A stretch of DNA of 64,000 bases from the NCBI GenBank assembly GCA_964356415.1, contig CAYHHK010000002.1:13732-77731 (forward strand), read 5' to 3'. The stretch comes from an uncultured Flavobacteriales bacterium. GTDB lineage: Bacteria > Bacteroidota > Bacteroidia > AKYH767-A > 2013-40CM-41-45. Numbering within the stretch: the stretch's first letter is position 1; every line of letters begins with the position of its first letter. Below, piece by piece: positions 1,800 to 17,921 of this stretch. Made by a program: the position numbers and the translations under genes. Under the pieces are notes generated by a model. It was not told the DNA's origin. It searched no databases and worked only from the letters and a program-made list of their open reading frames with translations.

Positions 1800-1820
1800 A
1801 ATTATTAAGACAAAAATATT

Positions 1821-4293: not shown

Positions 4294-5361
4294 CTACACT
4301 TTTTTGCACTTAAGCAACGAATGCGACACCCCGATACCATCCGTTTGTTCCTCAATTTTGAATCCGGCACGCTCCACGCATTTTTCAAAAGCTTTTGAAT
4401 AATACATCTGGCTGTTGCCATTGGCAATTGCTGTGAAGTATAAAGAGGTCATCTGCAAACAAAAAGCGGATGCTTCAAATTGCTGTTTGTCCCAAAGCGT
4501 TTCCATAATATACACATGCCCGGTTTCTGAAACCGCATCGCGGCAACGCGTCAGGATGGAAACAATTTCATCGTCAGAAAAACAATCCAGGAACTGGCTC
4601 ATCCAGATGGCATCGAATCCACCGGGGAACTTCTTCTCCCCTTCCAGTATATTGTTTTCGAAAAATGAAATGCGGTGACTCAACCCCGATTCCTCAATAT
4701 TTTTTTTCGCCATATCAAGTTGCCCCGGCAGGTCCATGATGGTGACGTGTACTTCAGGATCATGTTTCAAACATTGTATCGCCCATTTACCGGTATTGCC
4801 ACCTATGTCGAGGAGATGTTTTGGTTTGTTTTTAAAAACTGCTTCTAATGCCTGAGGAAAAGCATGGTCAGAATAAAAATGGTCAAAACTGAACCAGCTC
4901 CGCTGAACATGAACGGGAAGCTTTGACAATCCCTCATAAACCGTTTTCCAGTTGCCGAATACTTTTAATCCTTCCGGCTTTCCGTTGCGGATGGATTCAT
5001 CGAGGCGAAAAAGTCCTTCATAACATACATCATGGGTAAAATCCATGTTCACTTTTGTCATCGGATCGTTGAGAATGAAATATCCTGTCTTGCTCAGGCG
5101 GAATTTTTCATCCTCCCACAAAAGCAAACCAATACTCAATCCGGCTTCCATAAGCACGCGGGCCCCGTAATGACTGATGTTGCATTTTTTTTCTACTTCC
5201 TCAATCGTAACCGCTTCAGGTTTCCTCGATTCGATGTATTCCAGTATTCCGAAATCCCTTAATGAGCGCGATGCCTGGAAAACAAATGGCGCATAAGCAA
5301 TCCACTGCGCATTTTCCTTAGCCTCCAGTGCTGATTTTACTTCTTTATTGAAAAAATTCAT
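4294..5361 (-). CDS. class I SAM-dependent O-methyltransferase (family 2, caffeate-OMT-like)
   Basis: LLDIGGNTGKWAIQCLKHDPEVHVTIMDLPGQLDMAKKNIEES is a SAM-binding motif I/II. An N-terminal dimerisation-like region is present. 355 aa. Confidence 0.75.
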   Translation of the reverse strand: MNFFNKEVKSALEAKENAQWIAYAPFVFQASRSLRDFGILEYIESRKPEAVTIEEVEKKCNISHYGARVLMEAGLSIGLLLWEDEKFRLSKTGYFILNDPMTKVNMDFTHDVCYEGLFRLDESIRNGKPEGLKVFGNWKTVYEGLSKLPVHVQRSWFSFDHFYSDHAFPQALEAVFKNKPKHLLDIGGNTGKWAIQCLKHDPEVHVTIMDLPGQLDMAKKNIEESGLSHRISFFENNILEGEKKFPGGFDAIWMSQFLDCFSDDEIVSILTRCRDAVSETGHVYIMETLWDKQQFEASAFCLQMTSLYFTAIANGNSQMYYSKAFEKCVERAGFKIEEQTDGIGVSHSLLKCKKV

Positions 5362-5715
5362 AGCGGGCGAAGATATGAAATGAACAGGTAATCAGTCTTA
5401 GTAAAAATTTCACATCCCTTTTTTAAAATTTAAAACTTAAAAGGATGTAAATTTTGCGGAAGCAATGAAATCCCGACTAACCACAAATGTTTCCTTCCGA
5501 CATTAACTATTATCAATGCATGTCATCCCGAATGGAGCCCCAAAACTTTGGGGCGTAATGAGTGATCTTTCAAACTTTTGGACCACAATAAAATCGAATC
5601 CCAACAGCTAAATGAAGAGGAATCTTACCAACTCAAACTGTTGATCTCCCGTTTAAACTTCCCACCCCTCAATTCAAACAAATTTCCCTAATATTGAACC
5701 CCGAAAGAAAAATTT

Positions 5716-7260
5716 ATGGTTTCAATAGGCGATCGTTACCTGACGCTTGAGGATTTAATTGCAATTGTTGAACAGAACCGTAAAGTTGAGTTGAATGACA
5801 CAGCTACACGAAAAGTTTACCAGAGCTATTATTTCTTAAAGGAATTTATCAAAGAAAAGCTGATCTACGGCATCAATACCGGATTTGGTCCAATGGCCCG
5901 TTACCGGATTAATGCGGAGGATCAGATTGACCTGCAATACAACCTCATCAGGAGTCACTGCAGCGGCAGCGGTGCCATGATCGATCCTGCCTATGTAAAG
6001 GCAACCTTGATCGCTCGTCTCAATACCTTGTTGCTTGGTTACTCAGGCATCCATCCCGATGCAGTGGTTTTGCTGAAGGACATGATCAACCACGATGTGC
6101 TGCCTGTCATCTTCGAACACGGTGGCTTGGGCGCCAGCGGCGACCTTGTGCAACTGGCACATGTGGCACTCTCCATGATCGGCGAAGGAAATGTGAACCG
6201 AAACGGAGCGGTGAGCAAGACAGCTGATGTTTTTGCAAAAGAAAAAATAACACCCTTGAAAGTTCACATCAGGGAAGGACTTGCTTTGATGAATGGCACT
6301 TCAGCCATGTGTGGTATCGGAGCGCTGAACATCAGTGATGCAAGGAATCTTTTGCACTGGTCCGTTGCGATTTCTTCAATGATCGTTGAACTGGTTGAAT
6401 CATATGATGATCATTATTCATCAGAACTGAACAATGTAAAACAGCATGAAGGTCAGCGTAAAGTCGCAGGCATGATGCGTGCATTTCTCGCCGACAGTAA
6501 AATGGTGAAGAATCGCGAAGAACACCTTTATAACAGAAAAGTAGACGAGAACATTCTGAAAGAGAAAGTGCAGGAATATTATTCCATTCGCTGTGTACCG
6601 CAAATTCTCGGTCCTATCTACGATACCATTGCAGGTGCGGAAAAGGTAGTCATGGATGAGATCAATTCTGTGAATGACAATCCGGTGATCGACTACGAAC
6701 ATAAAAACGTATTTCACGGGGGAAATTTTCATGGCGACTACGTGGCGCTGGAAATGGACAAACTGAAAATTGCTGTAGCAAAACTTTCCATGTTGTGCGA
6801 ACGGCAACTGAACTTCCTGATGAACGACCACCTGAACGGAAAGCTTCCACCTTTCGTCAACCTCGGCAAACTCGGATTGAATATCGGCATGCAGGGAACC
6901 CAGTTTACAGCAACATCAACAGTTGCTGAAAATCAAATGCTGTCGAACCCGATGTATGTGCACAGCATACCAAGCAACAACGACAACCAGGATATCGTAA
7001 GCATGGGCTCCAATGCCGCACTCATCGCTGCAAGGGTCATCAACAATTCTTTTGAGGTCATGGCGATTGAATTGATCTCGTTGGTTCAAGCAATTGATTA
7101 CCTCGGTATTGCATCAAAGCTTTCTTCTGCATCTCAGTCAGTTTACAATGACGTGCGGAAACTGGTTCCTGTTTTTGAGAAGGACTCAATAATGTATGAG
7201 CGTACAAAATCTGTCAGGGATTTTCTGAAGGAGAGTAAGAATGCACTAAGTAAAAAGTAG
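5716..7260 (+). CDS. MIO-dependent aromatic amino-acid ammonia-lyase (HAL/TAL/PAL family)
   Basis: Motifs GINTGFGPMA and the Ala-Ser-Gly MIO triad in GGLGASGDLVQLAH. Length 514 aa. Overall collinear with HutH/TAL. Confidence 0.85.
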   Translation: MVSIGDRYLTLEDLIAIVEQNRKVELNDTATRKVYQSYYFLKEFIKEKLIYGINTGFGPMARYRINAEDQIDLQYNLIRSHCSGSGAMIDPAYVKATLIARLNTLLLGYSGIHPDAVVLLKDMINHDVLPVIFEHGGLGASGDLVQLAHVALSMIGEGNVNRNGAVSKTADVFAKEKITPLKVHIREGLALMNGTSAMCGIGALNISDARNLLHWSVAISSMIVELVESYDDHYSSELNNVKQHEGQRKVAGMMRAFLADSKMVKNREEHLYNRKVDENILKEKVQEYYSIRCVPQILGPIYDTIAGAEKVVMDEINSVNDNPVIDYEHKNVFHGGNFHGDYVALEMDKLKIAVAKLSMLCERQLNFLMNDHLNGKLPPFVNLGKLGLNIGMQGTQFTATSTVAENQMLSNPMYVHSIPSNNDNQDIVSMGSNAALIAARVINNSFEVMAIELISLVQAIDYLGIASKLSSASQSVYNDVRKLVPVFEKDSIMYERTKSVRDFLKESKNALSKK

Positions 7261-7317
7261 GCGGCTGTTAACTAATCAACTTAATCAACATATTCAACCC
7301 ACTCAACTTTTCTAAAA
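7261..7317 (+). promoter_or_regulatory. period-9 CA-rich tandem repeats in the 5' leader of the KR gene
   Basis: ctaATCAAC ttaATCAAC atATTCAAC ccaCTCAAC ttttctaaaaATG. Confidence 0.5.
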
Positions 7318-8046
7318 ATGAAAGTCGCATTAGTTACAGGAGGATCAAGAGGAATCGGCAGGGCAATCTGCGTAAAGCTTGCCGAGCTTGGATATTATGT
7401 ACTGATCAATTACCAGTCAAACAAAGCAGCTGCGGAAGAAACACTGGCCGAAGTAAAAGCAAAAGGAAGTGACGGAGAACTGATGATGTTTGACGTTGCC
7501 GAAGAAACGCAGGTACAATCCGTACTTGGAAGCTGGCTTGAGAACCATAAAGAAAACGCAATTGAAATCCTGGTAAATAATGCAGGAATTAAAAACGACA
7601 CGTTGCTGATGTGGATGAGCACAAAGCAATGGAAAGATGTGCTGAATACAAGCATGGACGGATTCTTCAACGTAACCAAACTCGTAGTACAGGGCATGCT
7701 CGTTAAGAAGTACGGAAGAATTGTAAACGTAGTATCTTTGTCAGGATTGAAAGGAATGCCCGGACAGGCAAATTACTCAGCCGCTAAAGCCGGAGTCATT
7801 GGTGCCACAAAAGCACTGGCGCAGGAAGTAGGAAGAAGAAATATTACAGTGAATGCAGTTGCACCCGGGTTTATCAGAACAGACATGACAAAAGATATTG
7901 ACGAGAAAAGTTTCAAGCAACTGATACCTGTCGCGCGTTTCGGAAATCCGGAAGAAGTAGCGGAAGCGGTTTGCTTTCTCGCTTCTGAAAAGGCATCGTA
8001 CATTACAGGTGTGGTGCTGAATGTAAATGGAGGACTTTATACATAA
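7318..8046 (+). CDS. fabG: 3-oxoacyl-[ACP] reductase-type SDR (FabG-like ketoreductase)
   Basis: TGGSRGIGRAI Rossmann motif, NNAGI, and the catalytic YSAAKAG (YxxxK). 242 aa. Confidence 0.8.
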   Translation: MKVALVTGGSRGIGRAICVKLAELGYYVLINYQSNKAAAEETLAEVKAKGSDGELMMFDVAEETQVQSVLGSWLENHKENAIEILVNNAGIKNDTLLMWMSTKQWKDVLNTSMDGFFNVTKLVVQGMLVKKYGRIVNVVSLSGLKGMPGQANYSAAKAGVIGATKALAQEVGRRNITVNAVAPGFIRTDMTKDIDEKSFKQLIPVARFGNPEEVAEAVCFLASEKASYITGVVLNVNGGLYT

Positions 8047-8053
8047 AAAGTAA

Positions 8054-8131
8054 AAAAGGTAATTGTGGTAATTGGTGTTATACAGTTTTGACTTAATTAC
8101 CTTAATTACCCATTCAACCAATAACTAAAGA
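8054..8131 (+). promoter_or_regulatory. inverted pair of tandem repeats (GGTAATTG x2 ... TAATTACC x2) plus ATTCAACC in the KAS leader
   Basis: ggtaattgtggtaattgg-N19-ttaattaccttaattacc cattcaacc, with 9-nt periodicity. Confidence 0.5.
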
Positions 8132-9355
8132 ATGAACAGAGTAGTAATAACAGGCATGGGAGTTTATTCATGTCTGGGTAAAAATTTAGAAGAAGTCCGT
8201 AATTCATTGTACGCCGGAAAATCAGGTATCGGCTATGATCAGGCAAGGAAAGATTTTGGTTTCCGCTCCGGACTTACGGGTATCCTGGAGAAGCCGCAGT
8301 TGAAAGGCAAACTGGACCGCAGACTAAGAATAGGATTGGCGGAAGAAGGGGAATACGCTTACCTGTCAACACTGGAAGCTTTGGAAAACGCAAAGCTCGA
8401 TGTTGGTTACCTTGAATCGCATGAAGCAGGAATCATTTTCGGGAATGACAGTTCTGCATTGGCAGTAGTAGAAGCCACCGATACCATCCGCCTGAAGAAA
8501 GATACCACGCTGCTGGGTTCAGGTTCCATTTTTCAAAGCATGAACTCCACGGTGAACATGAACCTGGCTACCATCTTTAAGCTGAAAGGAATCAACTTCA
8601 CCGTGAGTGCTGCCTGTGCTAGTGGGTCGCATGCAGCGGGCCTGGGATTTCTATTTATTAAAGAAGGATACCAGGACATGGTGATCTGTGGCGGCGCACA
8701 GGAAGTGAATATGTATTCCATGGGAAGCTTTGACGGACTCGGTGCTTTTTCCATCCGCGAAAATGAACCTACTTTAGCATCCCGACCTTTTGATAAATCT
8801 CGTGATGGGCTCATTCCCAGTGGAGGTGCAGCAACCATCGTTTTGGAAAGTTTGGAAAGCGCACTAAAGCGCGGAGCAAATATTCTCGGTGAAATTATCG
8901 GCTACGGATTTTCATCCAACGGCGACCACATATCCAATCCGAATGTTGACGGACCATACCGTTCGCTGATGCGTGCAATGAAACAATCCGGAATAAATGT
9001 TTCTGAAATTGATTACATCAATGCACATGCAACATCTACTCCTAATGGTGATATGTTTGAAGCGCGTGCCATTGATAAACTTTGCGGGGACGTAAAAACT
9101 GCAGTGAGTTCTACCAAATCAATGACGGGACATGAGTGCTGGATGGCAGGCGCAAGTGAAATTGTTTATTCGCTGCTGATGATGCGTGATTCGTTTATCG
9201 CACCGAACATCAACTTCGAAACGCCTGATGAAGATTCGGCCAAGCTGAATATAATTGCCAAAACGCTCGACAAGAACATTGACATTTTTCTTTCCAACTC
9301 CTTTGGATTTGGGGGAACGAATTCTACGATTATAGTGAAGAAATTTAAGGGGTGA
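8132..9355 (+). CDS. beta-ketoacyl-[ACP] synthase, KAS I/II (FabB/FabF) family
   Basis: Active-site Cys in SAACASGSHA. The two His motifs are NAHATSTPNGD and MTGHECWMAGA. 407 aa. Confidence 0.85.
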   Translation: MNRVVITGMGVYSCLGKNLEEVRNSLYAGKSGIGYDQARKDFGFRSGLTGILEKPQLKGKLDRRLRIGLAEEGEYAYLSTLEALENAKLDVGYLESHEAGIIFGNDSSALAVVEATDTIRLKKDTTLLGSGSIFQSMNSTVNMNLATIFKLKGINFTVSAACASGSHAAGLGFLFIKEGYQDMVICGGAQEVNMYSMGSFDGLGAFSIRENEPTLASRPFDKSRDGLIPSGGAATIVLESLESALKRGANILGEIIGYGFSSNGDHISNPNVDGPYRSLMRAMKQSGINVSEIDYINAHATSTPNGDMFEARAIDKLCGDVKTAVSSTKSMTGHECWMAGASEIVYSLLMMRDSFIAPNINFETPDEDSAKLNIIAKTLDKNIDIFLSNSFGFGGTNSTIIVKKFKG

Positions 9356-9496
9356 GGTATCTACAAATTACGAATGAGAACGAATTACGTATAAAGAAAA
9401 GGGCAGCCGAGGGGTGCTCTTTTTAATTTAGTACACACAACTTGTGCTGTGCGATACACAGGGTGGTGGGTTCAATTGTATAAGCATACAAAATTG

Positions 9497-9742
9497 CTAA
9501 GGAAGACGGGGATTGGCCTGTCTTTTTTTTGAACGCATTGCTATTTTTGCTATAGCGCGCAATGCATCATTTACCGAATCAGAGTCAGGAAAATTTTTTG
9601 CTACATCCGGAGCGAGAACAACTATGTTTGTTCCGGCAGCAAATTGCTTTGAATACTTTCCGCGGATTCCTCTGCTGAAATCATATTCAGACAACATTTC
9701 TTCAACTTGTTTATGTTTCATAATTATATTGTTTTCTTTCAT
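9497..9742 (-). CDS. BrnA/DUF4415-like small antitoxin-type protein (orphan, no cognate toxin)
   Basis: EYDFSRGIRGKY motif followed by VVLAPDVAKNFPDSDSVNDALRAIAKI, which resembles the BrnA-family layout (EYDFSKGKRG ... RLD.DVL.WF......N.ALR). No BrnT-like ORF is adjacent. Confidence 0.4.
   Translation of the reverse strand: MKENNIIMKHKQVEEMLSEYDFSRGIRGKYSKQFAAGTNIVVLAPDVAKNFPDSDSVNDALRAIAKIAMRSKKRQANPRLP
9504..9530 (+). terminator. rho-independent terminator downstream of the KR-KAS operon
   Basis: GACGGG-gattgg-CCTGTC hairpin (one G.U wobble) followed by T8. It overlaps the 3' codons of the minus-strand ORF 9497..9742. Confidence 0.5.
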
Positions 9743-9759
9743 TGCGGGCTTTTCTTTTT

Positions 9760-11271
9760 CTACTCTTTTATAAATTTCTTTACAATGATGCCTTGTTCGG
9801 TTTGGAGATCGAGAAAGTAAATGCCGCTTGAAAGAAAACGAATATCAATTTCTTTTTTGTAACCGGAAATGGTTTGTGATAAAAATTCTTTGCCGATGAG
9901 ATCGAAGATTTTTAGTTGGGAGATTTTTGCAGATGTTGAGATGAGAAGTTTTAAAGAAGCAGGATTCGGGGAAAGAAGAAAGAAGATGTCTGTCGCTTTT
10001 TCATTATAGCCATCAATCAGGCAGATTGTGCTGTCAAGCCCTAAGTTATATACAAAAGTACTATCATAAAAAAAAGTTGTAGAAGGTGCTGTAACAATTG
10101 TTGGAATGTTTAACTGATTTGCGGTAAAGGTTGGTTGAGTTAATGTAGGAGTTCCTTCATTGCATCCGCTATTGCCGTTTGCATCAGTTTTGATCAAATA
10201 AATATCGCCACCAGACATACCAGCAATAACGTATCCACCGTCAAAGGTTTGCTGAATTGAATTACCATAATCATTACCTGTACCCCCAAATGTTTTTGCC
10301 CAAATTAAATTTCCCAAACTATCTATCTTGTTAATAAAAACATCATTGCCATTACTAGTACTTACATACCCTGCCATTGCATAACCTCCATCTGAAGTTT
10401 GCGCTCCGGAATAGCCATAAGTAAATGCTGATGTGCACTGAAAGTTTTTTTCGAAAACTAAATTTCCCACACTATCAGTTTTAATTATACAGACATTTCC
10501 TGCCGCTGATAAGCTCCCGCCAATAATATAACCGCCATCGGAAGTTTGGAAAACAGATTTTCCATAACCGTTTGATCCGTTATAAACCCTTGTCCAAAGG
10601 GAGTCGCCATTGTGGTCTGTTTTTATCAAGCAAATAGATGCTCCTAAACTCCATCTTTCTCCGGTAATAATATATCCACCATCACTGGTTTGTTTCACTG
10701 CCCATCCTTCATCAGTGTCGGCATCGCCAAAAGTTTTTGACCACAGCAAATTTCCGATGCTATCTGTTTTAATTAAGTAAACATCCAGGTTATTCGCACC
10801 AACACTTGTTATACCACAAATGATATATCCACTATCCGATGTCTGTTGAACTGAATAACCTATACTGCCAAAACCGCTAACAAATCTCTTTACCCAAATA
10901 GTATCACCGATAGAGTCAGTTTTAATTAAAAATAAAGTGAAGGGTGAAAAGCTCGTGTCACTTCTTCCTGTAACTGCATATCCACCATCAAACGTTTGAC
11001 AAACAGACCAACCGATATCAACACCAGTGCCTCCATAGGTTTTAGACCAAACAGCGTTTCCATAAGCATCTGTTTTTATCAAATATAAATCATAATTACC
11101 TGTAACGTTATCGTTGTAGCCGGTCATTATAAAACCACTATCAGAAGTTTGCTGAACTGAATTACCGAAATCGTTTATTCCTGATATGCCAAAAGTCTTT
11201 TGAAAGGTTATTTGTCCAAGACAATTTAGCCCGATATATAAAAGAAAAACGAGGAGAGGATATTTTTTCAA
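9760..11271 (-). CDS. repeat-rich (~45-aa SDGGY / IKTD..GN..W.KT.GG repeats) secreted protein with T9SS CTD
   Basis: Likely TTG start at 11271 gives the signal peptide (M)KKYPLLVFLLYIGLNCLGQ; the ORF-track Met at 11385 precedes a non-signal N-terminus. At least 8 repeats of QTSDGGYIITG...LIKTDSIGNLLWSKTFG. The C-terminal LSPNPASLKLL...GIYFLDLQTEQGIIVKKFIKE is a CTD. Confidence 0.55.
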   Translation of the reverse strand: MKKYPLLVFLLYIGLNCLGQITFQKTFGISGINDFGNSVQQTSDSGFIMTGYNDNVTGNYDLYLIKTDAYGNAVWSKTYGGTGVDIGWSVCQTFDGGYAVTGRSDTSFSPFTLFLIKTDSIGDTIWVKRFVSGFGSIGYSVQQTSDSGYIICGITSVGANNLDVYLIKTDSIGNLLWSKTFGDADTDEGWAVKQTSDGGYIITGERWSLGASICLIKTDHNGDSLWTRVYNGSNGYGKSVFQTSDGGYIIGGSLSAAGNVCIIKTDSVGNLVFEKNFQCTSAFTYGYSGAQTSDGGYAMAGYVSTSNGNDVFINKIDSLGNLIWAKTFGGTGNDYGNSIQQTFDGGYVIAGMSGGDIYLIKTDANGNSGCNEGTPTLTQPTFTANQLNIPTIVTAPSTTFFYDSTFVYNLGLDSTICLIDGYNEKATDIFFLLSPNPASLKLLISTSAKISQLKIFDLIGKEFLSQTISGYKKEIDIRFLSSGIYFLDLQTEQGIIVKKFIKE

Positions 11272-11634
11272 TGGCAGACCAAAGATAGAAAAGTTTATTT
11301 CCGGCTGCTTAGAATGGTTGCTATGAAATAAAGCCCTAAGTGCAATAGCCCTGACAGTAGCGGAAACCCCGAAGAGCGAATGCATGTGCGGATAGCCGGA
11401 GTTGCAGCGCCTGCCTGCCGTTAGCAGGATGGCAGGAAGACAGGTAAATTGAAATGAGACAGCATCGCTCCCAACCTTCGCTCACTCTCCTTCGCTAAAG
11501 CTACGGAAAGCAAAGAGCTACGGGTGGCAAGGATCAACCTTCGCTGAAGCTACGGCTGACAAGGGAAAAATTAAGAATGGATTTCTGAAAAAAATCATGT
11601 AAGTTTGCCGACCTACTTAAACACAAGCACTTGA

Positions 11635-11892
11635 ATGTCGGCTACCAGCACAGATGAAATAATCACCAAGGTAAATGCTTTCCTTGTTGATGAGTTTGAG
11701 GTTGATCCTGAGTCCATTACACCCGGGGCAAACCTGAAAGAAACCCTGAATCTCGACAGCCTCGATTATGTTGATTTAGTCGTTGTCATTGAAAGCAATT
11801 TCGGTTTTAAGGTAAAAGGAGAGGATTTTGTCAATATCAAGACCTTCCAGGACTTTTACAACTACATCAACACAAAAGTAGCGGCAAAATAA
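11635..11892 (+). CDS. acyl carrier protein
   Basis: 85 aa. The DSL phosphopantetheine attachment motif (LNLDSLDYVDLVVVIES) is present. Confidence 0.8.
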   Translation: MSATSTDEIITKVNAFLVDEFEVDPESITPGANLKETLNLDSLDYVDLVVVIESNFGFKVKGEDFVNIKTFQDFYNYINTKVAAK

Positions 11893-11899
11893 ATTCCCC

Positions 11900-12787
11900 A
11901 TGCCTTCATGGAAGGGTAAATCCCAGGGCGGACTTCTCGGTTACAAAATTTTTGTTTTCATTTTAAAGCTGCATGGACTGCGGCTTGCTTATTTTATTCT
12001 CCGGTTTGTTGCATCATGGTACCTGTTTTTTTCATTCCGAACCTTTAAATCCTCCTGGCATTTTTTCCGGACCATGCTGAAGTTTCCTTTCTTCAAAAGC
12101 ATTTCTTCCATTTACAAAAGCTATTATAACCTGGGTGTATCACTGCTCGACAAATTTGCAATGATGGCAGATGTAAAAACAAACTTCACATTCGATTTTA
12201 ACGGGGAAGAATACCTGCATGAAATGGCGAAAGCAGGACGCGGCGGCGTGCTCATCAGCGGGCATCTCGGCAACTGGGATATGGCGGGCAACATGCTGAA
12301 ACGCGTGGAGACAAAAGTAAACATCGTACTCTTTGAAGGAGAAGCCGAACAGATCAAAAAATATATGGACCGTTTTGCAGGCGCCCCTAACTACAACATC
12401 ATCTCCGTGAAAAATGACATGTCCCATATTTTTCAAATCTCAGCAGCGATTCAACGAAATGAATTCATCTGCATACACGGCGACCGGTTTACCGAAGGTA
12501 CAAAAACATTTGAAACAGAATTCCTCGGAAGAAAGGCATTGTTTCCTTCAGGTGTTTTTCAGATTGCCCATAAACTGAAAACGCCTTATACCTTTGTATA
12601 TGCGGTGAAAGAATCCTCCTCGCATTATCATTACTCTGCAAGCAAACCAAAGGTGAGCGAAAAAAGTCCGGAAGAGATTTTAAGGGAATATGTTACTTCA
12701 TTGGAAGAAAAAGTGAAACAATACCCCACGCAGTGGTTTAATTTTTACAATTTCTGGGAAGAAGGACGAAAGGAAAAGCGGCAGTAG
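11900..12787 (+). CDS. LpxL/HtrB-family (lauroyl/myristoyl) acyltransferase
   Basis: SGHLGNWDMAG matches the H(X)4[DE] HxxNWE active-site motif of lipid A late acyltransferases. An N-terminal hydrophobic anchor is present. 295 aa, 8 nt after the ACP gene. Confidence 0.6.
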   Translation: MPSWKGKSQGGLLGYKIFVFILKLHGLRLAYFILRFVASWYLFFSFRTFKSSWHFFRTMLKFPFFKSISSIYKSYYNLGVSLLDKFAMMADVKTNFTFDFNGEEYLHEMAKAGRGGVLISGHLGNWDMAGNMLKRVETKVNIVLFEGEAEQIKKYMDRFAGAPNYNIISVKNDMSHIFQISAAIQRNEFICIHGDRFTEGTKTFETEFLGRKALFPSGVFQIAHKLKTPYTFVYAVKESSSHYHYSASKPKVSEKSPEEILREYVTSLEEKVKQYPTQWFNFYNFWEEGRKEKRQ

Positions 12788-12830
12788 GCAGTAGGCAATT
12801 GGCAATTGGCAATTGGCAATTGGCAATAAG
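12781..12830. repeat. heptamer tandem repeat (GCAGTAG x2, GCAATTG x4, GCAATAA) fused to the stop codon
   Basis: Read directly from the sequence: cagTAGgcagTAGgcaattggcaattggcaattggcaattggcaaTAAgc. It contains four CAATTG palindromes. Confidence 0.8.
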
Positions 12831-12898
12831 CAAAAATATAACACCGCAAATCTGCGACTAGAATTATTAATCCAAATAAAATCAACTATTAACCCCTC

Positions 12899-15800
12899 TT
12901 ATTCCACCACAATTTTCCGTTGCTCTGAAATATTTTTTCCTTGTATTCTCAGAAAATAAATTCCCGGTTTTGCTTTTCTTAAATCAATTTGCTGATGCCC
13001 GTTTTCATTGGTCAACCGGTCGTTGTAAATAACCTCCCCTATTGAGTTAGTGATAGTAACAGGTGAGCCGACAAATGATTCACCAAAGGAAATATTGAAA
13101 ATCCCATCGTAGCTCGGGTTCGGAAATACATTCATTACATCAGTTGAACCATTTACACCTGCATCATCAGAAAAATTTTCAACTGAATTTCTTGCAGCCG
13201 CTGTACCAGTTGTAAAAGTTGATACAGATGATGTAACTGTATTCACTCCATCACTCACTGTAGTGTACCATTGATAGCAGGTGTTCAGCGCAAGTGAAGC
13301 ATAGGGCATGGAAGAAACGGTTCCTGATGGAACGCCTGTATTTGTTCCGATGAGTGAATATGCCTGTGCAGCCGGTGTCATGTTGTAATTAATCGTAAAC
13401 TGGCTGTTGGCATCGGTTTCATATTGATTCAGCCAGGGTGAAAATGTTTTTACGGAAATTGTATTGTTTGCCGGCGAGAACTTCATGATGCGCATCCATC
13501 CATTACCGCCGTTCGTGCGCGCCTGATAGTCGCTGAGTAAAGTTGTAATTACATTATTCTGGTACACGTCTGTCCGTTTTGCTTCTTCATCCTGGTGTCC
13601 GCACAGCATGAGGAAAACATTCGGATTTGTTTTCGCCATGTTGTAAACAGCGCTTCCCTGTGTTCCCCATGCACTGTCTGCATCTATAAAATAGTGACTT
13701 CCGAGAATAGCTCTTTTGTTGCTATTTGACTGCAATAAATTATTTGCCCATGTCAGCACCGCAGGATCCTGGGTTGGTGAATATTCAAAATTGATTACGA
13801 TGAAATCCATTCCGCTTGCTGAGAAGAGGCAGTAGTTATTGTCGTTACTACTCCCATAATGACCACCATAATAAGGGCGACCGTTGAAACGTGCAGAACC
13901 AAAATACTGGTTAAAATAATTTGTCGTTCCATTTGGATTGCCAACAGGCGACTGGTCATGATTGCCGATATTCATTCCGAAAGGAATGCCAAATGTGAGC
14001 TGTGTAGTAACAGGGTTCTCAATAATTTTTACTGAGGTATCTGCACGTTTCCATTCATTTACATACGTATCGCCATTCTGCACACAATCACCTACTCCTT
14101 CAACGAACACGATGTTATCAGAAACAAGGTGGCTAACAATCCAGTTCATCTGTGACTTGTACATTTCATTGGTGCCGCCATACATCAGCCCGGTATAATA
14201 TTGTGTATCGGGAATTACAATGACTGTGAAATCAGCAGCCGGTGTAGGCGGACAAGGACGTGCGTAATAGGCAACTGTAAGGGCTGTAGCTTCCGGATCA
14301 CTCACTGAAACATTCAGCGAGGTTGATACTGGAACACCGGCTGCATTGTTCAACGGAGAAACAACAACAGGCTGTGCAGGCGGATTGTTAATTACCGGTG
14401 GCGTCAGTGGTGCGCCGGAATTCCAGTACCAGTTGCTGCCTGTAATGGTTCCATGCTTTGCATTGCCGGAACTATCCTTCACAGCAGTGCCGCACCTTTC
14501 GTTCAATCCCCATCGAGCCACCATTCCGGTTTGTGGCGAGTTCAACTGTTGCGACATCGTCGATTGAATAATTGCCTGAGAGCGCGCATTGTTCCAGATG
14601 CGGGCCTCATCAATTGATCCGTTGAAATATCCTGCGGGTGATCCTGATGAATTTAATGCAGAACCCAATGCCGCATGCTGAATACTTGCACTTTGAGGAG
14701 TGCGGTTTACTGTTACTGAGTTTTCCAGATTCCCATTCAGGTATATCTTAAAAACACTGCCGTCATAGGTAAGTGCTGCGTGATTCCATACATTGCCTGT
14801 GATTACGGTTGTTCCATAGATCGGATGATTGAGCCCTGGTGATGCACTGCCCGTCCCTTCTTCAAAATCTCCTGCAAGTTTTCCTGTTGTGCCATCAATG
14901 CCGAGAAAATAATTGCAATCTTTCGTGCTTCCGTCTGCTTCAGATCTTCCTTTCGTCAACAAAGGAATTGCACTTACACCTCCGGAACCCGAACTTGCAG
15001 TTGTTCCTATTCCCTCTTTTCTGAACCATGTTTCTACAGTAAATTGTGAAAGACCCAGCCCTGAAATGTTACCAAACGTCACATATGTATTTGTTCCCCC
15101 AAAATACAAAGAAGCATTTCCTGAAGAAGTGATCGGAGAGAAGGTAGTGCCTGAAATCCAAACTGGGCCATTGGTCAAAATTCCGTTCACTGATGATGCT
15201 GTTCCTGAATTGGCAGTTGCCGTGCCTATACCTTCATTCATTCCCCAATGACCGATGAGACCTGTTGCACTATTAATTTGCAGGGTCATATTTGTCTGTA
15301 TAGTTGCTTGTGACAATGCCGAGTTCCAGATCCTTATTTCATCCATGCTTCCTGCAAAATAACCCGAAGCAACACCTGTTGAATTCAATGCAGTTCCAAT
15401 ACTTGAATGCTGAATTGACAATGACTGTGGAAGCCGACCTACAACAAGTGTTCTTTCAAGATTACCATTCAGGTATAGTTTCCATGTGTTACCATCATAA
15501 GTAGCAGCTGCATGATACCAGACATTGTTACAAATAGTTGTAATTCCCTTCACAGGATGATTTAAGCCGGGACTTGGCTGACCGGTACCTTCTTCGAAAT
15601 CAGCTGCCAAAACATTGGTTGCAGCATCAATTCCAAGGAAATAATTGCAGTCTTTTGTATTGCCATCTGCTTCTCCCCTTCCCTTTGAAACAAGAGGAAT
15701 AGCTGTAAGGCCTCCTGTTCCTGTGCTGGCACTTACGCCAGTACCACTTCGCTTGAACCAGGTTTCAACAGTAAAGGCTGATGCCCGCAATGCTGATGCA

Positions 15801-15922
15801 GAACCATGTGTGACATAGTCATTCGTTCCGTCAAAATTAATTCCATTCTGTGCAAATGAACTCGTTATTCCTCCAAATAGAAGACAAACTAGAATAATGG
15901 TGTGGTGAATGGTGTTTTTCAT
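12899..15922 (-). CDS. secreted LamG x2 (concanavalin-like) + calcineurin-like metallophosphoesterase + T9SS CTD protein
   Basis: Signal peptide MKNTIHHTIILVCLLFGGITSSFAQ. Two ~230-aa internal duplicates (GINFDGTNDYVTHG...CNYFLGID / SLYFGGTNTYVTFG...CNYFLGID). Metallophosphoesterase motifs VIVIPDTQYY, GVGDCVQNGD, NIGNHD and LCGHQDEE. The C-terminal VFPNPSYDGIFNISF...GIYFLRIQGKNISEQRKIVVE is a CTD. Confidence 0.65.
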   Translation of the reverse strand: MKNTIHHTIILVCLLFGGITSSFAQNGINFDGTNDYVTHGSASALRASAFTVETWFKRSGTGVSASTGTGGLTAIPLVSKGRGEADGNTKDCNYFLGIDAATNVLAADFEEGTGQPSPGLNHPVKGITTICNNVWYHAAATYDGNTWKLYLNGNLERTLVVGRLPQSLSIQHSSIGTALNSTGVASGYFAGSMDEIRIWNSALSQATIQTNMTLQINSATGLIGHWGMNEGIGTATANSGTASSVNGILTNGPVWISGTTFSPITSSGNASLYFGGTNTYVTFGNISGLGLSQFTVETWFRKEGIGTTASSGSGGVSAIPLLTKGRSEADGSTKDCNYFLGIDGTTGKLAGDFEEGTGSASPGLNHPIYGTTVITGNVWNHAALTYDGSVFKIYLNGNLENSVTVNRTPQSASIQHAALGSALNSSGSPAGYFNGSIDEARIWNNARSQAIIQSTMSQQLNSPQTGMVARWGLNERCGTAVKDSSGNAKHGTITGSNWYWNSGAPLTPPVINNPPAQPVVVSPLNNAAGVPVSTSLNVSVSDPEATALTVAYYARPCPPTPAADFTVIVIPDTQYYTGLMYGGTNEMYKSQMNWIVSHLVSDNIVFVEGVGDCVQNGDTYVNEWKRADTSVKIIENPVTTQLTFGIPFGMNIGNHDQSPVGNPNGTTNYFNQYFGSARFNGRPYYGGHYGSSNDNNYCLFSASGMDFIVINFEYSPTQDPAVLTWANNLLQSNSNKRAILGSHYFIDADSAWGTQGSAVYNMAKTNPNVFLMLCGHQDEEAKRTDVYQNNVITTLLSDYQARTNGGNGWMRIMKFSPANNTISVKTFSPWLNQYETDANSQFTINYNMTPAAQAYSLIGTNTGVPSGTVSSMPYASLALNTCYQWYTTVSDGVNTVTSSVSTFTTGTAAARNSVENFSDDAGVNGSTDVMNVFPNPSYDGIFNISFGESFVGSPVTITNSIGEVIYNDRLTNENGHQQIDLRKAKPGIYFLRIQGKNISEQRKIVVE

Positions 15923-16061
15923 ATTGTGTGTAAGCCTCCAAAGTGCAATGACAGAGAGGATTTCAAAGGTAATCCATTGATAAATAGCATCAAAAATAAA
16001 TTTGTCATAAAGTTTTATGCATTCATTTCATCAGTATTTTCGCCTAGCTAGTTAATGCTCT

Positions 16062-16505
16062 ATGTCAGAACCGATAATACTAGTCGACGGCGAGGAGTTT
16101 GAAAATCTCATCCCGCAGAAAAAGCCATTTGTTATGGTTGGCCGATTATTCTCTTGTGATGAAAAGAATATTCATACAGGATTTACTCCCTCAGAGAAAA
16201 ATATCTTCTCAGAGAATGGCTATTTTACAGAGCCCGGATTGATTGAAAATATGGCCCAGAGCGCTGCTGCCGGCACGGGTTATTTTTTCAAATCACAAAA
16301 CAAACCGGTGCCTGTTGGATTTATCGGCGCAATCAAAGACTTTAAACTTTTTCGGTTACCGAAGGTGAACGACCTCCTTGAAACTGAAATAAATGTCGTT
16401 GCTGAAGTTATGAATGCCTCTGTTATCAATGCGAAAGTCAGCTGTAACGGAGAAGAACTTGCATCCTGTGAGATGAAAATATTTTTACTTGATGCACGCA
16501 TGTAA
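16062..16505 (+). CDS. hot-dog fold (3-hydroxyacyl-ACP dehydratase-like) protein
   Basis: 147 aa. PFVMVGRLFSCDEKNIHTGFTPSEKNIFSENGYF...LIENMAQSAAAG resembles the APE/FabA-Z-type dehydratase layout. Assignment is by pattern only. Confidence 0.45.
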   Translation: MSEPIILVDGEEFENLIPQKKPFVMVGRLFSCDEKNIHTGFTPSEKNIFSENGYFTEPGLIENMAQSAAAGTGYFFKSQNKPVPVGFIGAIKDFKLFRLPKVNDLLETEINVVAEVMNASVINAKVSCNGEELASCEMKIFLLDARM

Positions 16506-16625
16506 TTTCAAATCGGAGAAGTTCATCTTCAGAGTTTTACATAACCGGCTATTGAAAACTATTAGTTTTACTCCGCAGCATCTTCGTTCACTGCCTTACT
16601 TTCGCACCAACCTAAAACCCTGCAA

Positions 16626-17921
16626 ATGAAAAAAAATCTACTTCTATCCGGTATTTGTTTCTTTTTCTTTCTTCTTCAAAACGCAAATGCACAACCTGCA
16701 GATGCTGAAGTTGCAACCTTTGCATCTCCGGCAAACCTGAACTTCTGTCCTGCACAAATTCCCATCAGCATCAATATTTATAACAACGACCTGGTGGATA
16801 TAACAGAAGTTGTATTGAACTGGAGTATCAACAGTGTTGCGCAGGCACCTGTTACATGGTCGGGTCTGATTGCTGCAGGTGATCTTGCTGCCATCGAACT
16901 GACGCCATCCTCTGATTTTTTAAGCGCTACTACCTACGACATTGAGGTTTCAATTTCTACCGTGAATACACTACCGGATCCTAATTCGGCTAACGACGTA
17001 AACATGGTTTCCTTCTTGGTTTACGAGGTATTTGTTCCGTTATTTTACTGGAATGGCTGCTCACTTGAATGCCTGAATTTTTCAGACTATCTTTCCATTC
17101 AATGGTATAAAGACGGATCACCGGATCCAAATGCCCCGGATTCAGGAATTTATACGCCGTCGCTGCCGGGTTCATATACGATGGTCGGTCTTACTTTTGA
17201 TTCCTGCGATGCAATTGCCGATACTTCCATAGCAGTAAATCCACCAGCACATGGCATTACACCATTGGGAGTTACCTCTTTCTGCGAAGGTGATTCAGTT
17301 GGTCTTGTTTTCTGGGCCAGCGAACAGGTGTTTTATACATGGAATACCGGAAGCAGTGATGACACCATTTTTGCAAGTTTAGACGGATGGTATTCTGTAA
17401 ACGGCCTGACTGTTAATTCCTGTCCGATCATTGACAGTATTCATGTTACAGTACATCCAACTCCGATTGTATCTATTTCTGATATGAATGACACCCTTGC
17501 CTCTACTTATAGCGGATTGCACCAATGGTATCTGAATGGAACCCAGATTGGCGGAGCCCATGATTCAACATATGTTCCAACAGGATCAGGAATCTATTTT
17601 TGTACTGTTACTGATGTCTATGGCTGTACCGGAACATCGAATTCAATCAACTGGATTTTCCCTGGCATCAGTATCCCGGTAACAATCAGTGATGTGATGC
17701 TTTACCCAAATCCTGCGAAAGATGTTGTCTTTATCAAATTTAATTCAAGAAAAGAAAACCTTGAACTGAAAATTTTTGATGCTGTCGGGCGCCTGGTGTT
17801 TAAGGAAATCATCTTTGAAGACACCGCTATCGATATCGCCGGATTGAAGGGTGGCGTTTACCAGTGCGTGTTTACAGGAGAAGGAAAAATGTCTTCACAG
17901 AAACTGGTAAAGACATTCTGA
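16626..17921 (+). CDS. secreted Ig/PKD-like protein with T9SS CTD
   Basis: Signal peptide MKKNLLLSGICFFFFLLQNANAQ. The C-terminal LYPNPAKDVVFIKFNSRKENLELKIFDAVGRLVFKE...GGVYQCVFTGEGKMSSQKLVKTF is a CTD. Confidence 0.6.
   Translation: MKKNLLLSGICFFFFLLQNANAQPADAEVATFASPANLNFCPAQIPISINIYNNDLVDITEVVLNWSINSVAQAPVTWSGLIAAGDLAAIELTPSSDFLSATTYDIEVSISTVNTLPDPNSANDVNMVSFLVYEVFVPLFYWNGCSLECLNFSDYLSIQWYKDGSPDPNAPDSGIYTPSLPGSYTMVGLTFDSCDAIADTSIAVNPPAHGITPLGVTSFCEGDSVGLVFWASEQVFYTWNTGSSDDTIFASLDGWYSVNGLTVNSCPIIDSIHVTVHPTPIVSISDMNDTLASTYSGLHQWYLNGTQIGGAHDSTYVPTGSGIYFCTVTDVYGCTGTSNSINWIFPGISIPVTISDVMLYPNPAKDVVFIKFNSRKENLELKIFDAVGRLVFKEIIFEDTAIDIAGLKGGVYQCVFTGEGKMSSQKLVKTF

What the first reader, a model, noticed from the sequence alone, without database searches (positions are those of the whole stretch)
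4294..16505. Fragmented aryl-polyene / flexirubin-type lipid biosynthesis locus split by T9SS cargo genes
Seven genes fall within 12 kb: OMT (4294-5361, -), MIO ammonia-lyase (5716-7260), KR (7318-8046), KAS (8132-9355), ACP (11635-11892), LpxL-like acyltransferase (11900-12787) and a hot-dog dehydratase (16062-16505). This is the gene set characteristic of flexirubin/APE-type pigment clusters, which prime a dedicated type-II FAS with an aryl acid made by a TAL. The set looks incomplete and interrupted.
- No aryl-CoA/AMP ligase, thioesterase, or LolA/MMPL export gene is visible.
- A 2.3-kb block (orphan antitoxin plus repeat-protein T9SS cargo) sits between KAS and ACP.
- A 3-kb LamG-phosphoesterase cargo gene sits between the acyltransferase and the dehydratase.

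Either this is a minimal or novel variant of the pathway, or the cluster has been invaded by cargo-gene insertions.
Basis: partly seen in the sequence, partly recalled or inferred. Interest (0 to 1): 0.6.

Follow-up and report, generated by a model that had tools for sequence, protein, structure and literature searches.

The report
Split, interrupted flexirubin pigment gene cluster
This is the first half of an ordinary flexirubin (yellow-orange membrane pigment) gene cluster from an uncultured Bacteroidota bacterium; it looks incomplete only because the cluster has been split between two genome locations and three unrelated genes have been inserted between its genes.

Summary
All seven genes are at the stated coordinates. 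They are flxJ (divergent) and flxA-B-C-D-E-F, in the order of the first six genes of the Chitinophaga pinensis flexirubin cluster. FlxA, FlxB and FlxJ pass NCBIfam's flexirubin-specific equivalog cut-offs.

The set is not a minimal pathway. A second contig found in the same five samples, with matching coverage and composition, carries flxH through flxV.

The window's dehydratase FlxF has the catalytic Glu but not the His. FlxS at the other locus has the His but not the Glu, as in the ApeP/ApeI heterodimer, so the two loci should depend on each other.

The interrupting genes are lineage-specific insertions. flxC and flxD are adjacent in 72 of 72 distant relatives, whereas three of four genomes in this genus (window included) carry a different gene there. 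The LamG gene is shared only with the closest relative.

All seven flx genes are intact (dN/dS 0.02-0.065). FlxW, FlxX, FlxY and DarA/DarB were not located. The "antitoxin" and "phosphoesterase" labels are unsupported.

Verdict: a known pathway with a fragmented layout, of modest interest.

The parts
4294..5361 (-). flxJ: SAM-dependent methyltransferase, divergent from flxA. Its inferred role is methylation of the aryl ring.
   Evidence: NF053543 FlxJ_fam_MTase scores 562 bits against a cut-off of 560. It has Pfam Methyltransf_2 plus a dimerisation domain. It is 92% identical to the L007 orthologue, with dN/dS 0.058. In most relatives flxJ lies between flxI and flxL instead.
5716..7260 (+). 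flxA: MIO-dependent tyrosine ammonia-lyase (Tyr to 4-coumarate)
   Evidence: NF053541 FlxA_rubin_TAL scores 821 bits against a cut-off of 700. ASG is at residues 140-142 and dN/dS is 0.050. The activity was shown for the C. pinensis orthologue (PMC3992019) and is inferred here.
7318..8046 (+). flxB: SDR ketoreductase
   Evidence: NF053542 FlxB_rubin_SDR scores 400 bits against a cut-off of 340. The TGGSRGIG and YSAAK motifs are present and dN/dS is 0.022.
8132..9355 (+). flxC: FabB-like beta-ketoacyl-ACP synthase
   Evidence: It has both Pfam ketoacyl-synt domains. The best PDB matches are KAS I structures at 310 bits. Cys162/His299/His334 are present and dN/dS is 0.021. It is 70-76% identical to the flxC position in 76 other genomes.
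9396..9424 (.). Hairpin flanked by an A-run and a T-run, between the convergent flxC and orf81. It looks like a terminator.
   Evidence: The fold of 9356-9496 gives -34.5 kcal/mol, z = -2.5. The sequence was read. It has not been tested experimentally.
9497..9742 (-). orf81: 81-aa ORF of unknown function, part of the inserted block
   Evidence: It has no Pfam or NCBIfam family even at E <= 1. Its PDB hits are only designed helical repeats. It is absent from L007, L008 and L009.
9760..11385 (-). Inserted T9SS cargo gene: a beta-propeller with about seven 50-aa repeats plus a type A C-terminal sorting domain
   Evidence: It matches Por_Secre_tail and weakly matches an SBBP-propeller model. It contains 7 repeats of about 150 nt. 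It is absent from all relatives, and the alignment to L007 breaks at 9346 and resumes at 11604.
11600..11607 (+). TAAGTTTG: candidate Bacteroidota -7 promoter box for flxD-flxE
   Evidence: A TAnnTTTGC box 25-35 nt upstream of the flxD start codon is invariant in the window, L007, L008 and L009. The motif occurs 0.53 times per kb per strand in the window. This rests on the motif alone.
11635..11892 (+). flxD: acyl carrier protein
   Evidence: It matches PP-binding and NF003757 at 71 bits against a cut-off of 65. The LDSLD serine is present and dN/dS is 0.040.
11900..12787 (+). flxE: LpxL-family (lipid A type) acyltransferase
   Evidence: Pfam Lip_A_acyltrans scores 66.6 bits. The HLGNWD motif (HX4D) is present and dN/dS is 0.042. 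It occupies the same position as C. pinensis flxE.
12899..15922 (-). Inserted T9SS cargo gene: two LamG (Laminin_G_3) domains, an unassigned middle region and a type A C-terminal sorting domain
   Evidence: Family matches are, and there is no PDB match. L007 has the same gene at the same place (88% aa identity). L008 and L009 lack it, with E-F gaps of 41-42 nt.
15997..16004 (+). TAAATTTG: candidate -7 box 58 nt upstream of flxF, in the divergent LamG/flxF spacer
   Evidence: Found. It is degenerate in L007 (TAAATATG), so support is weak.
16062..16505 (+). flxF: ApeP-like hot-dog dehydratase subunit. It has the catalytic Glu62 and Tyr54 in place of the FabZ His.
   Evidence: A profile of 36 syntenic orthologues matches FabZ structures at E = 6e-7 and 6qsr_B at 1.4e-4. 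Glu is invariant in 36 of 36 orthologues and His is present in only 4 of 36. The precomputed table lists PF22817, but my own Pfam scans found nothing.

Best explanation
The region is locus 1 of a flexirubin-type aryl-polyene pigment pathway that is split into at least two loci in this uncultured Bacteroidota genus.

Locus 1 (the window) holds flxJ and flxA-F. FlxA deaminates tyrosine to 4-coumarate. FlxJ methylates the aryl ring. FlxC (FabB-like KS), FlxB (KR), FlxD (ACP) and FlxF (a dehydratase subunit) belong to a type II FAS-like machine that extends the starter without enoyl reduction, which gives a polyene. FlxE is an LpxL-type acyltransferase.

Locus 2 lies on another contig of the same organism. 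It supplies:
- the FlxH thioesterase;
- FlxI and FlxL;
- a second ACP, FlxM;
- the FlxN/FlxO KS-CLF pair;
- FlxP;
- LolA2 and LolB2;
- FlxS;
- a glycosyltransferase;
- the FlxU MMPL-acyltransferase-methyltransferase fusion;
- FlxV.

FlxF carries only the Glu of the FabZ catalytic pair, and FlxS carries only the His. They should therefore form an ApeP/ApeI-like heterodimer with a single active site, so neither locus works alone.

The three interlopers (orf81, a beta-propeller T9SS cargo gene and a LamG T9SS cargo gene) are lineage-specific insertions on the opposite strand, at the flxC|flxD and flxE|flxF junctions. They are tolerated because those junctions separate transcription units. flxD has a conserved promoter-like box of its own, and darAB occupies the E|F junction in at least one other lineage (L027).

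Shown here: gene identities, gene order, the polarity of the insertions, gene integrity under purifying selection, the existence of locus 2, and the complementary catalytic residues.

Inferred: enzyme activities, the heterodimer, the promoters, and that the pigment is actually made.
For: Identity:
- Equivalog matches to FlxA, FlxB and FlxJ.
- The order flxA-F equals that of C. pinensis Cpin_1853-1858.
- The same order is found in about 70 genomes.

Locus 2:
- FlxN protein P0122 is encoded in ERZ4201064, ERZ4201063, ERR3856788, SRR24858483 and SRR24858484. Those are five of the six samples listed as holding the window's FlxA.
- Coverage matches: 7.06x against 6.73x in one assembly, and 6.52x against 6.59x in the other.
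- GC is 0.413 against 0.412. The tetranucleotide correlation is 0.975, compared with 0.971 between the two halves of the window.
- It carries LolA2_flexi at 217 bits (cut-off 125) and LolB2_flexi at 95 bits (cut-off 60).
- The close relative L008 shows the same break after flxF, and its MAG holds flxH-V on another contig.

Insertions:
- A C-D gap over 300 nt occurs in 0 of 72 distant relatives.
- Within the genus, L007 has an 82-nt gap, L008 has an RCC1-repeat T9SS cargo gene, L009 has an Mrr-type nuclease, and the window has orf81 plus the propeller gene.
- The LamG gene is shared with L007 only.

Function retained:
- All genes are full length, with dN/dS of 0.02-0.065 against L007 and intact catalytic motifs.

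Dehydratase complementarity:
-.
- ApeI/ApeP are described as heterodimeric dehydratases with a single active site (PMC8041823).

KS mapping:
- FlxN matches the APE ketosynthase chain 6qsp_A at 200 bits, and FlxO is a degenerate KS.

Promoter box.
Against: - FlxY (4-coumarate-CoA ligase), FlxW, FlxX and DarA/DarB were not found in the window, in 4.3 kb upstream of it, in the 21 kb of locus 2, or in any genus-level locus.
- In relative L103 the cluster ends right after flxV. The pathway may therefore have a third locus, or it may differ from the canonical one.
- The link between the two contigs rests on co-occurrence, coverage and composition, not on physical linkage. Congeners have similar composition.
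- FlxJ passes its cut-off by only 2 bits.
- FlxF alone gives no Pfam hit in my scans.
- The promoter and terminator calls rest on motifs only.
- There are no expression or pigment data.
Confidence: 0.85

Rival explanations
1. A variant pathway that truly lacks FlxY, FlxW and DarA/DarB. The tyrosine-derived aryl polyene would be loaded by another route. It would end up on a lipid through FlxE or FlxU rather than esterified to a dialkylresorcinol. The product would be flexirubin-like, not flexirubin.
For: FlxW, FlxX and FlxY follow flxV in 37-63 of the distant loci, but are absent from all sequence held for this organism and genus. L103, whose FlxV is 86% identical, ends the cluster after flxV with a DMT transporter.
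Against: Only about 90 kb of this organism's genome was visible. C. pinensis already keeps darAB at a separate locus, so a third locus is an ordinary explanation. FlxA is under strong purifying selection, which implies that its product is used and must be activated.
Confidence: 0.12
2. A decaying remnant. After the cluster broke up and was invaded, the seven genes are on their way to becoming pseudogenes and no pigment is made.
For: The layout is fragmented, and opposite-strand genes lie between flxC and flxD and between flxE and flxF.
Against: All seven genes are full length, with dN/dS of 0.02-0.065 against L007 at dS of 0.57-1.8. Their catalytic motifs are intact. The same broken layout persists in three species that differ by about 15-25% in DNA. 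Locus 2 is also intact.
Confidence: 0.05
3. A minimal, self-sufficient seven-gene aryl-polyene pathway.
For: The window holds one each of TAL, KS, KR, ACP, DH and acyltransferase.
Against: The same organism keeps flxH-V elsewhere. FlxF lacks the catalytic His and its predicted partner is at locus 2. The window has no KS-CLF pair, thioesterase or export genes.
Confidence: 0.03
4. The KR, KAS, ACP and acyltransferase genes belong to an unrelated lipid pathway (lipid A or ornithine lipid) and merely sit next to a TAL.
For: FlxE is in the LpxL family, and FlxC and FlxD have generic fatty-acid-synthesis homology.
Against: FlxB meets the flexirubin-specific equivalog. A-B-C-D-E-F are adjacent and followed by flxI, flxJ and flxN in about 70 genomes. 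L009, in the same genus, runs straight from flxF into flxH through LolA2.
Confidence: 0.02

Closest known systems
Chitinophaga pinensis flexirubin cluster flxA-flxY (Cpin_1853-1877) with darAB at a separate locus (Schoner et al. 2014, PMC3992019)
   Same: The gene families and the order flxA-B-C-D-E-F are the same. Locus 2 follows the same H, I, L, M, N, O, P, LolA... S, T, U, V series. The cluster is already known to be split in C. pinensis, where the dar genes lie elsewhere.
   Different: - There is an extra break between flxF and flxH.
- flxJ has moved to a divergent position upstream of flxA.
- Three unrelated genes lie inside flxA-F.
- No flxG or flxK was seen.
- flxW, flxX and flxY are not next to flxV.
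Flavobacterium johnsoniae UW101 37-kb flexirubin cluster (Fjoh_1075-1110; McBride et al. 2009, as cited in PMC3992019)
   Same: It has homologues of flxA-F, H, I, L-W and Y. LolA2 and LolB2 lie inside the cluster (PMC11885536).
   Different: The F. johnsoniae cluster is a single contiguous cluster that includes darA and darB. Relative L027 shows darAB between flxE and flxF, which is the junction the LamG cargo gene occupies here.
Proteobacterial aryl-polyene (APE) clusters (E. coli CFT073, Xenorhabdus doucetiae, Acinetobacter baumannii)
   Same: - The logic is type II FAS-like.
- There is a KS-CLF pair: FlxN matches 6qsp_A.
- The dehydratase is an ApeI/ApeP-type heterodimer with one active site: FlxS matches 6qsr_A and the FlxF profile matches 6qsr_B.
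- Both have LolA-like and MMPL export genes and an acyltransferase.
   Different: According to the APE literature, the APE starter is 4-hydroxybenzoate. Here the starter comes from a tyrosine ammonia-lyase. APE clusters are described as single co-directional clusters.
Xanthomonadin and arcuflavin clusters
   Same: They make aryl-polyene pigments with FAS-like enzymes. Arcuflavin also carries a dialkylresorcinol (PMC3949708, abstract).
   Different: Those pathways use a XanB2-type chorismate-utilising enzyme and an AMP-ligase for the starter. No such genes and no halogenase were found in the window.

Membership tests
Flexirubin (flx) biosynthetic gene cluster | FlxA-type tyrosine ammonia-lyase | tested here: met
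   NF053541 equivalog scores 821 bits against a cut-off of 700. The MIO motif ASG is at residues 140-142.
Flexirubin (flx) biosynthetic gene cluster | FlxB SDR reductase | tested here: met
   NF053542 equivalog scores 400 bits against a cut-off of 340.
Flexirubin (flx) biosynthetic gene cluster | Conserved order flxA-B-C-D-E-F (TAL, KR, KAS, ACP, LpxL-like acyltransferase, DH-like) | tested here: met
   The order matches C. pinensis Table S4 and about 70 genomes. Here the order is kept but is interrupted at C|D and E|F.
Flexirubin (flx) biosynthetic gene cluster | FlxJ-family methyltransferase | tested here: met
   NF053543 scores 562.1 bits against a cut-off of 560, which is marginal. It is 53-65% identical to the flxJ of relatives.
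Flexirubin (flx) biosynthetic gene cluster | Dedicated LolA2/LolB2 and an MMPL-type exporter | tested here: met
   These are not in the window. On the second contig of the same organism, LolA2_flexi scores 217 bits (cut-off 125), LolB2_flexi scores 95 bits (cut-off 60), and FlxU is a 1287-aa MMPL-acyltransferase-methyltransferase fusion. That it is the same organism is inferred.
Flexirubin (flx) biosynthetic gene cluster | FlxY 4-coumarate-CoA ligase | tested here: inconclusive
   tblastn with an FlxY reference (NF053551, 670 bits, from L136) found no hit in the window, in loci of the same organism, or in genus-level loci. It did hit 37 distant loci. Only about 90 kb of this genome was visible.
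Flexirubin (flx) biosynthetic gene cluster | DarA/DarB dialkylresorcinol genes (they may be at a separate locus) | tested here: inconclusive
   The DarB reference (NF053539, 596 bits, from L027) and the DarA reference gave no hit in the sequence held for this organism. In C. pinensis these genes are at a separate locus.
Flexirubin (flx) biosynthetic gene cluster | KOH-reversible yellow-to-red pigment in the outer membrane | not testable with these tools
   The organism is uncultured and known only from metagenome contigs.
Proteobacterial APE cluster | 4-hydroxybenzoate starter loaded by an ApeH-type ligase, with no ammonia-lyase | tested here: not met
   The locus starts with a TAL. No adenylating enzyme was found in the window or in locus 2.
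Proteobacterial APE cluster | ApeI/ApeP heterodimeric dehydratase and ApeO/ApeC KS-CLF pair | tested here: met
   The FlxF profile matches 6qsr_B, FlxS matches 6qsr_A, and their Glu and His are complementary. FlxN matches 6qsp_A and FlxO is a degenerate KS. This feature is shared ancestry with flexirubin clusters and does not show APE membership.
Type II toxin-antitoxin (for orf81) | Recognisable antitoxin family or fold and an adjacent toxin gene | tested here: not met
   orf81 has no Pfam or NCBIfam hit at E <= 1. Its PDB hits are only designed repeat proteins. Its neighbours are flxC and a T9SS cargo gene.

The most novel reading that the evidence does not exclude
This uncultured genus may have lost FlxY, FlxW, FlxX and DarA/DarB. 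It would then make a tyrosine-primed aryl polyene that is not esterified to a dialkylresorcinol and is instead attached to a lipid by FlxE or FlxU. That product would sit between flexirubin and the proteobacterial APE lipids. It would be encoded by a cluster whose heterodimeric dehydratase subunits lie at different loci.
Probability: 0.12. Interest if true: 0.5.

Novelty: new member of a known kind. Interest (0 to 1): 0.25.

Why it matters
The practical lesson concerns genome mining. A cluster caller looking at this window alone would report a truncated or 'novel minimal' aryl-polyene cluster. In fact the pathway is canonical but spread over at least two loci and interrupted by unrelated genes.

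It also gives a clean natural example of a biosynthetic operon coming apart without loss of function:
- Purifying selection stays strong.
- The breaks fall at boundaries between transcription units.
- The two subunits of a single-active-site dehydratase end up at different loci.

The flxC|flxD spacer holds a different foreign gene in three of four genomes of the genus (window included). It could serve as a small model for recurrent gene capture at one intergenic site in a genome crowded with T9SS cargo genes (9 in 64 kb). None of this changes what is known about flexirubin chemistry.

Tried and rejected
1. Walking beyond flxV in the window organism to find flxW and flxY failed.
   - A homology search with the FlxV fragment returned only a 94%-identical fragment, and its cluster mate was a different protein.
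   - The exact FlxU (P0250) was found, but 'no gene with exactly this product is on record'.
   - The JGI scan then gave only genus-level relatives. Of these, L103 shows the cluster ending after flxV.
2. FlxN candidates P0015, P0014, P0008, P0017, P0003, P0123, P0125 and P0124 came from other samples. Only P0122 matched the window's samples.
3. I looked for signs of a mobile element at the insert edges. There are no flanking terminal inverted or direct repeats. The GC-rich elements GGGTGGTGGGTT and CCTTCGCTnAAGCTACGG are not dispersed in the window. The similarity to L009's junction covers only about 17 nt. The insertion mechanism stays unknown.
4. I tried to reconstruct the rearrangement from L009's upstream flank. 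tblastx found no match to the window, L097 or the other loci.
5. Pfam on FlxF found nothing for the window protein, although a precomputed table lists PF22817. I resolved the fold with a profile search against the PDB instead.
6. The window's polysaccharide deacetylase (23082-23747) is not a displaced FlxP. It is only 31% identical to the FlxP at locus 2.
7. No TAnnTTTG box was found in the 354-nt flxJ-flxA spacer on either strand, so the promoters of flxJ and flxA are unassigned.

Full report
OBSERVATION. The ORF list reproduces every coordinate in the finding.

Pfam and NCBIfam give these assignments:
- 4294-5361(-) is a FlxJ-family methyltransferase (NF053543, 562 bits; cut-off 560).
- 5716-7260 is the flexirubin tyrosine ammonia-lyase FlxA (NF053541, 821 bits; cut-off 700).
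- 7318-8046 is the FlxB SDR (NF053542, 400 bits; cut-off 340).
- 8132-9355 is a two-domain beta-ketoacyl synthase.
- 11635-11892 is an ACP.
- 11900-12787 is an LpxL-family acyltransferase.
- 16062-16505 gives only a weak FabZ match.

The interrupting genes are:
- an 81-aa ORF with no family;
- a beta-propeller protein with a T9SS type A sorting domain and seven repeats of about 150 nt;
- a 1007-aa protein with two LamG domains and the same sorting domain.

The rest of the 64-kb window is housekeeping genes and further T9SS cargo genes. It holds no other flx gene.

WHAT IT IS. Table S4 of Schoner et al. 2014 lists the C. pinensis cluster as flxA (ammonia-lyase), flxB (SDR), flxC (KAS), flxD (ACP), flxE (lipid A acyltransferase), flxF (dehydratase-like), and then G, H (thioesterase), I, J (methyltransferase), K ... 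Y (CoA ligase). darA and darB lie at a separate locus. The window therefore carries the first six genes in canonical order, plus flxJ in divergent orientation upstream.

A scan of one genome per species with FlxC returned 80 loci. Mapping all window proteins onto them shows A-B-C-D-E-F adjacent in nearly all, usually followed by flxI, flxJ(+) and flxN. A C-D gap over 300 nt occurs in 0 of 72 distant loci. An E-F gap over 300 nt occurs in 6 of 56. In L027 that gap holds darA and darB (DarB NF053539, 596 bits).

THE INSERTS ARE LINEAGE-SPECIFIC. Four MAGs form a genus-level group with the window, at 93-95% FlxC identity. The next relatives are at 76% or less.
- L007 has flxJ(-) A B C D E [LamG gene, 88% identical] F. 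Its C-D spacer is only 82 nt.
- L008 has an RCC1-repeat T9SS cargo gene between C and D, and nothing between E and F.
- L009 has an Mrr-type nuclease gene between C and D, and nothing between E and F.

At nucleotide level, the window aligns with L007 up to 9346 and again from 11604. It aligns with L008 up to 12772 and again from 16124. So the C|D junction has taken up a different gene in three of the four genomes where the junction can be seen (window, L008, L009; L010 ends before it). The LamG insertion dates to the common ancestor of the window organism and L007.

No IS-like terminal repeats flank either block, and the short GC-rich elements at the edges are not dispersed repeats. The mechanism of insertion is unknown. 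The genome is crowded with cargo genes: nine Por_Secre_tail genes in 64 kb, six of them in the first 21 kb.

THE CLUSTER IS SPLIT, NOT MINIMAL. In L009, flxF runs straight into a thioesterase (FlxH), FlxI, FlxL, an ACP, FlxN, FlxO, a deacetylase and LolA2_flexi (NF053544, 219 bits). In the window, L007 and L008, flxF is instead followed by the same cargo gene, ispG, another cargo gene and orf482. The break after flxF is therefore shared by these three.

Using L009's FlxN as query, I found a group of FlxN proteins at 77-86% identity. One of them, P0002, lies on contig JBBRAY010000043 of the same MAG as L008. It is flanked by flxH, I, L, M, (N), O, P, LolA, R, S, a GT2, DUF2062, FlxU and FlxV.

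Another, P0122, is encoded in ERZ4201064 (NODE_498, coverage 7.06), ERZ4201063 (NODE_1632, coverage 6.52), ERR3856788, SRR24858483 and SRR24858484. These are five of the six samples listed as carrying the window's FlxA (all but ERR3856787). In the two ENA assemblies the window's own contigs have coverage 6.73 and 6.59. GC is 0.413 against 0.412, and tetranucleotide composition correlates at r = 0.975, against 0.971 between the two halves of the window. Both agree with one organism.

This locus 2 (L097) carries:
- FlxH;
- FlxI;
- FlxL;
- FlxM;
- FlxN;
- FlxO;
- FlxP;
- LolA2_flexi (217 bits);
- LolB2_flexi (95 bits);
- FlxS (ApeI-like);
- a GT2;
- DUF2062;
- the 1287-aa MMPL-acyltransferase-methyltransferase FlxU;
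- FlxV.

From contig geometry the two loci are at least about 20 kb apart (inference).

A FUNCTIONAL LINK BETWEEN THE LOCI. A profile of 36 syntenic FlxF orthologues matches FabZ structures over nearly its full length (E = 6e-7) and matches 6qsr chain B. FlxS matches FabZ and 6qsr chain A.

In the alignments, FlxF keeps the catalytic Glu (LIENMAQ). That Glu is invariant in 36 of 36 orthologues. FlxF has Tyr where FabZ has the His of GHFP, and only 4 of 36 orthologues have His there. FlxS has FRGHFPG, but Gln at the Glu position. Of 22 FlxS orthologues, 19 have the GHFP motif, and all 19 have Gln.

From established knowledge, which I did not test here, FabZ active sites are built from the His of one subunit and the Glu of the other. 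[quoted passage not shown] I infer that FlxF and FlxS form such a heterodimer. If so, the dehydratase gene in the window is not functional without locus 2.

FlxN matches the APE ketosynthase chain 6qsp_A (200 bits), and FlxO is a degenerate KS. FlxC is closest to stand-alone KAS I structures. The main KS-CLF pair is therefore at locus 2. The exact step catalysed by FlxC is unassigned.

THE GENES ARE ALIVE. All seven flx genes are full length relative to their orthologues. Against L007, dN/dS is 0.021-0.065 at dS of 0.57-1.8.

Catalytic motifs are intact:
- FlxA: ASG at 140-142.
- FlxC: Cys162, His299 and His334.
- FlxD: the DSL serine.
- FlxB: TGGSRGIG and YSAAK.
- FlxE: HLGNWD.

A TAnnTTTGC box, the Bacteroidota -7 consensus (from my own knowledge of Bacteroidota promoters), lies 25-35 nt upstream of flxD in all four genomes, including L007, which has no insert. 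A hairpin flanked by A- and T-runs follows flxC. A TAAATTTG lies 58 nt upstream of flxF. These support, but do not prove, separate transcription of flxABC, flxDE and flxF. That would explain why opposite-strand insertions at these junctions are tolerated.

WHAT REMAINS OPEN. I took reference copies of FlxW (C45 family), FlxX (holo-ACP synthase) and FlxY (NF053551, 670 bits) from L136, and of DarA and DarB from L027. They hit 37-63 (W, X, Y) or 5-11 (Dar) of the held loci. None of those loci belongs to this organism or its genus.

In L103 (FlxV 86% identical) the cluster ends after flxV, with a DMT-type transporter followed by opposite-strand genes. Attempts to read beyond flxV in the window organism failed. 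These genes are therefore either at a third locus or absent. A third locus is the ordinary expectation, since C. pinensis already separates darAB. I put the probability that they are absent at about 0.12.

SIDE CLAIMS. 'Orphan antitoxin' for orf81 and 'phosphoesterase' for the LamG protein have no support in Pfam, NCBIfam or the PDB. 'OMT' describes the fold. The flexirubin methyl group derived from methionine is on the ring.

COMPARISON AND VERDICT. This is a member of the flexirubin cluster family, homologous in its core to proteobacterial APE clusters. It has an unusually fragmented layout:
- a break between flxF and flxH;
- flxJ relocated, which is also seen in L027 and L060;
- foreign genes at two internal junctions.

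The chemistry is expected to be canonical unless FlxY, FlxW and the Dar genes are truly absent. Interest is modest (0.25). It serves as a caution for cluster-mining software and as a tidy example of an operon coming apart under continued selection.

Noticed in passing
window 36900-37959: The prfB ORF (37069-37959) matches only positions 64-353 of the RF2 model. A CTTTGAC motif preceded by GGGGG lies at 36924. This looks like the classical programmed +1 frameshift of release factor 2. The upstream frame was not read.
   Followed up: partly
window 12780-12828: A heptanucleotide tandem repeat (GGCAGTA x2, GGCAATT x4, GGCAATA) starts inside the last codons of flxE and fills the spacer before the convergent LamG gene. 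L007 has unrelated sequence at this position.
   Followed up: no
window 11489-11506 and 11538-11555: An 18-nt direct repeat, CCTTCGCTnAAGCTACGG, occurs twice, 49 nt apart, in the inserted sequence upstream of flxD. It is found nowhere else in the window. Chance expectation is 0.07 matches.
   Followed up: partly
window 9461-9472; L009 11270-11281 and 11759-11770: The 12-mer GGGYGGTGGGTT occurs only at the flxC|flxD junction, in the window organism and twice in L009. None of the other 176 loci has it. The similarity extends over only about 17 nt. It may be a shared remnant of an older insert or a recombination site.
   Followed up: partly
L009 11364-11553: A tandem array of about 9 copies of a 21-nt unit (ATGACGCAGGTCAATTTGGCG) lies between flxC and the inserted Mrr-type nuclease gene.
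   Followed up: no
window 966-4208, 9760-11385, 12899-17921, 19942-20616, 24213-28991, 44714-45202, 57980-59641: Nine genes with a T9SS type A C-terminal sorting domain lie in 64 kb, six of them within the first 21 kb around the flx locus. This density makes interruption of any cluster by cargo genes unsurprising.
   Followed up: partly
L097 6364-7140; L103 4837-6027(-); L087 4477-7621: Locus 2 is also variable within the genus.
- A 258-aa ORF unique to the window organism precedes flxH.
- L103 has a 396-aa ORF with no family between DUF2062 and flxU.
- L087 has three genes (BetR-like, an OMP beta-barrel and a hypothetical) between flxH and flxI.
- L088 and L087 have a T9SS cargo gene at the left edge.

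   Followed up: partly
window 22159-23747: A PorG-like gene (98.7 bits, below the cut-off of 130) sits next to a polysaccharide deacetylase. That deacetylase is only 31% identical to the FlxP deacetylase at locus 2, so it is a paralogue, not a displaced flx gene.
   Followed up: yes
window 16062-16505: The precomputed Pfam table lists PF22817 (ApeP-like) for this protein without a weak mark. Three hmmscan runs here found no Pfam family even at E <= 10. An Ohtaekwangia orthologue reaches only 21.5 bits, below the cut-off of 27. The family model appears to cover this clade poorly.
   Followed up: yes
window 45858-51947, 29068-32286, 60347-60955: Other notable genes in the window are a 2029-aa bacterial alpha-2-macroglobulin, a 1072-aa TMEM260-like protein O-mannosyltransferase homologue, and an SRPBCC 'polyketide cyclase'-fold protein. 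None shows any evident link to the flx genes.
   Followed up: no
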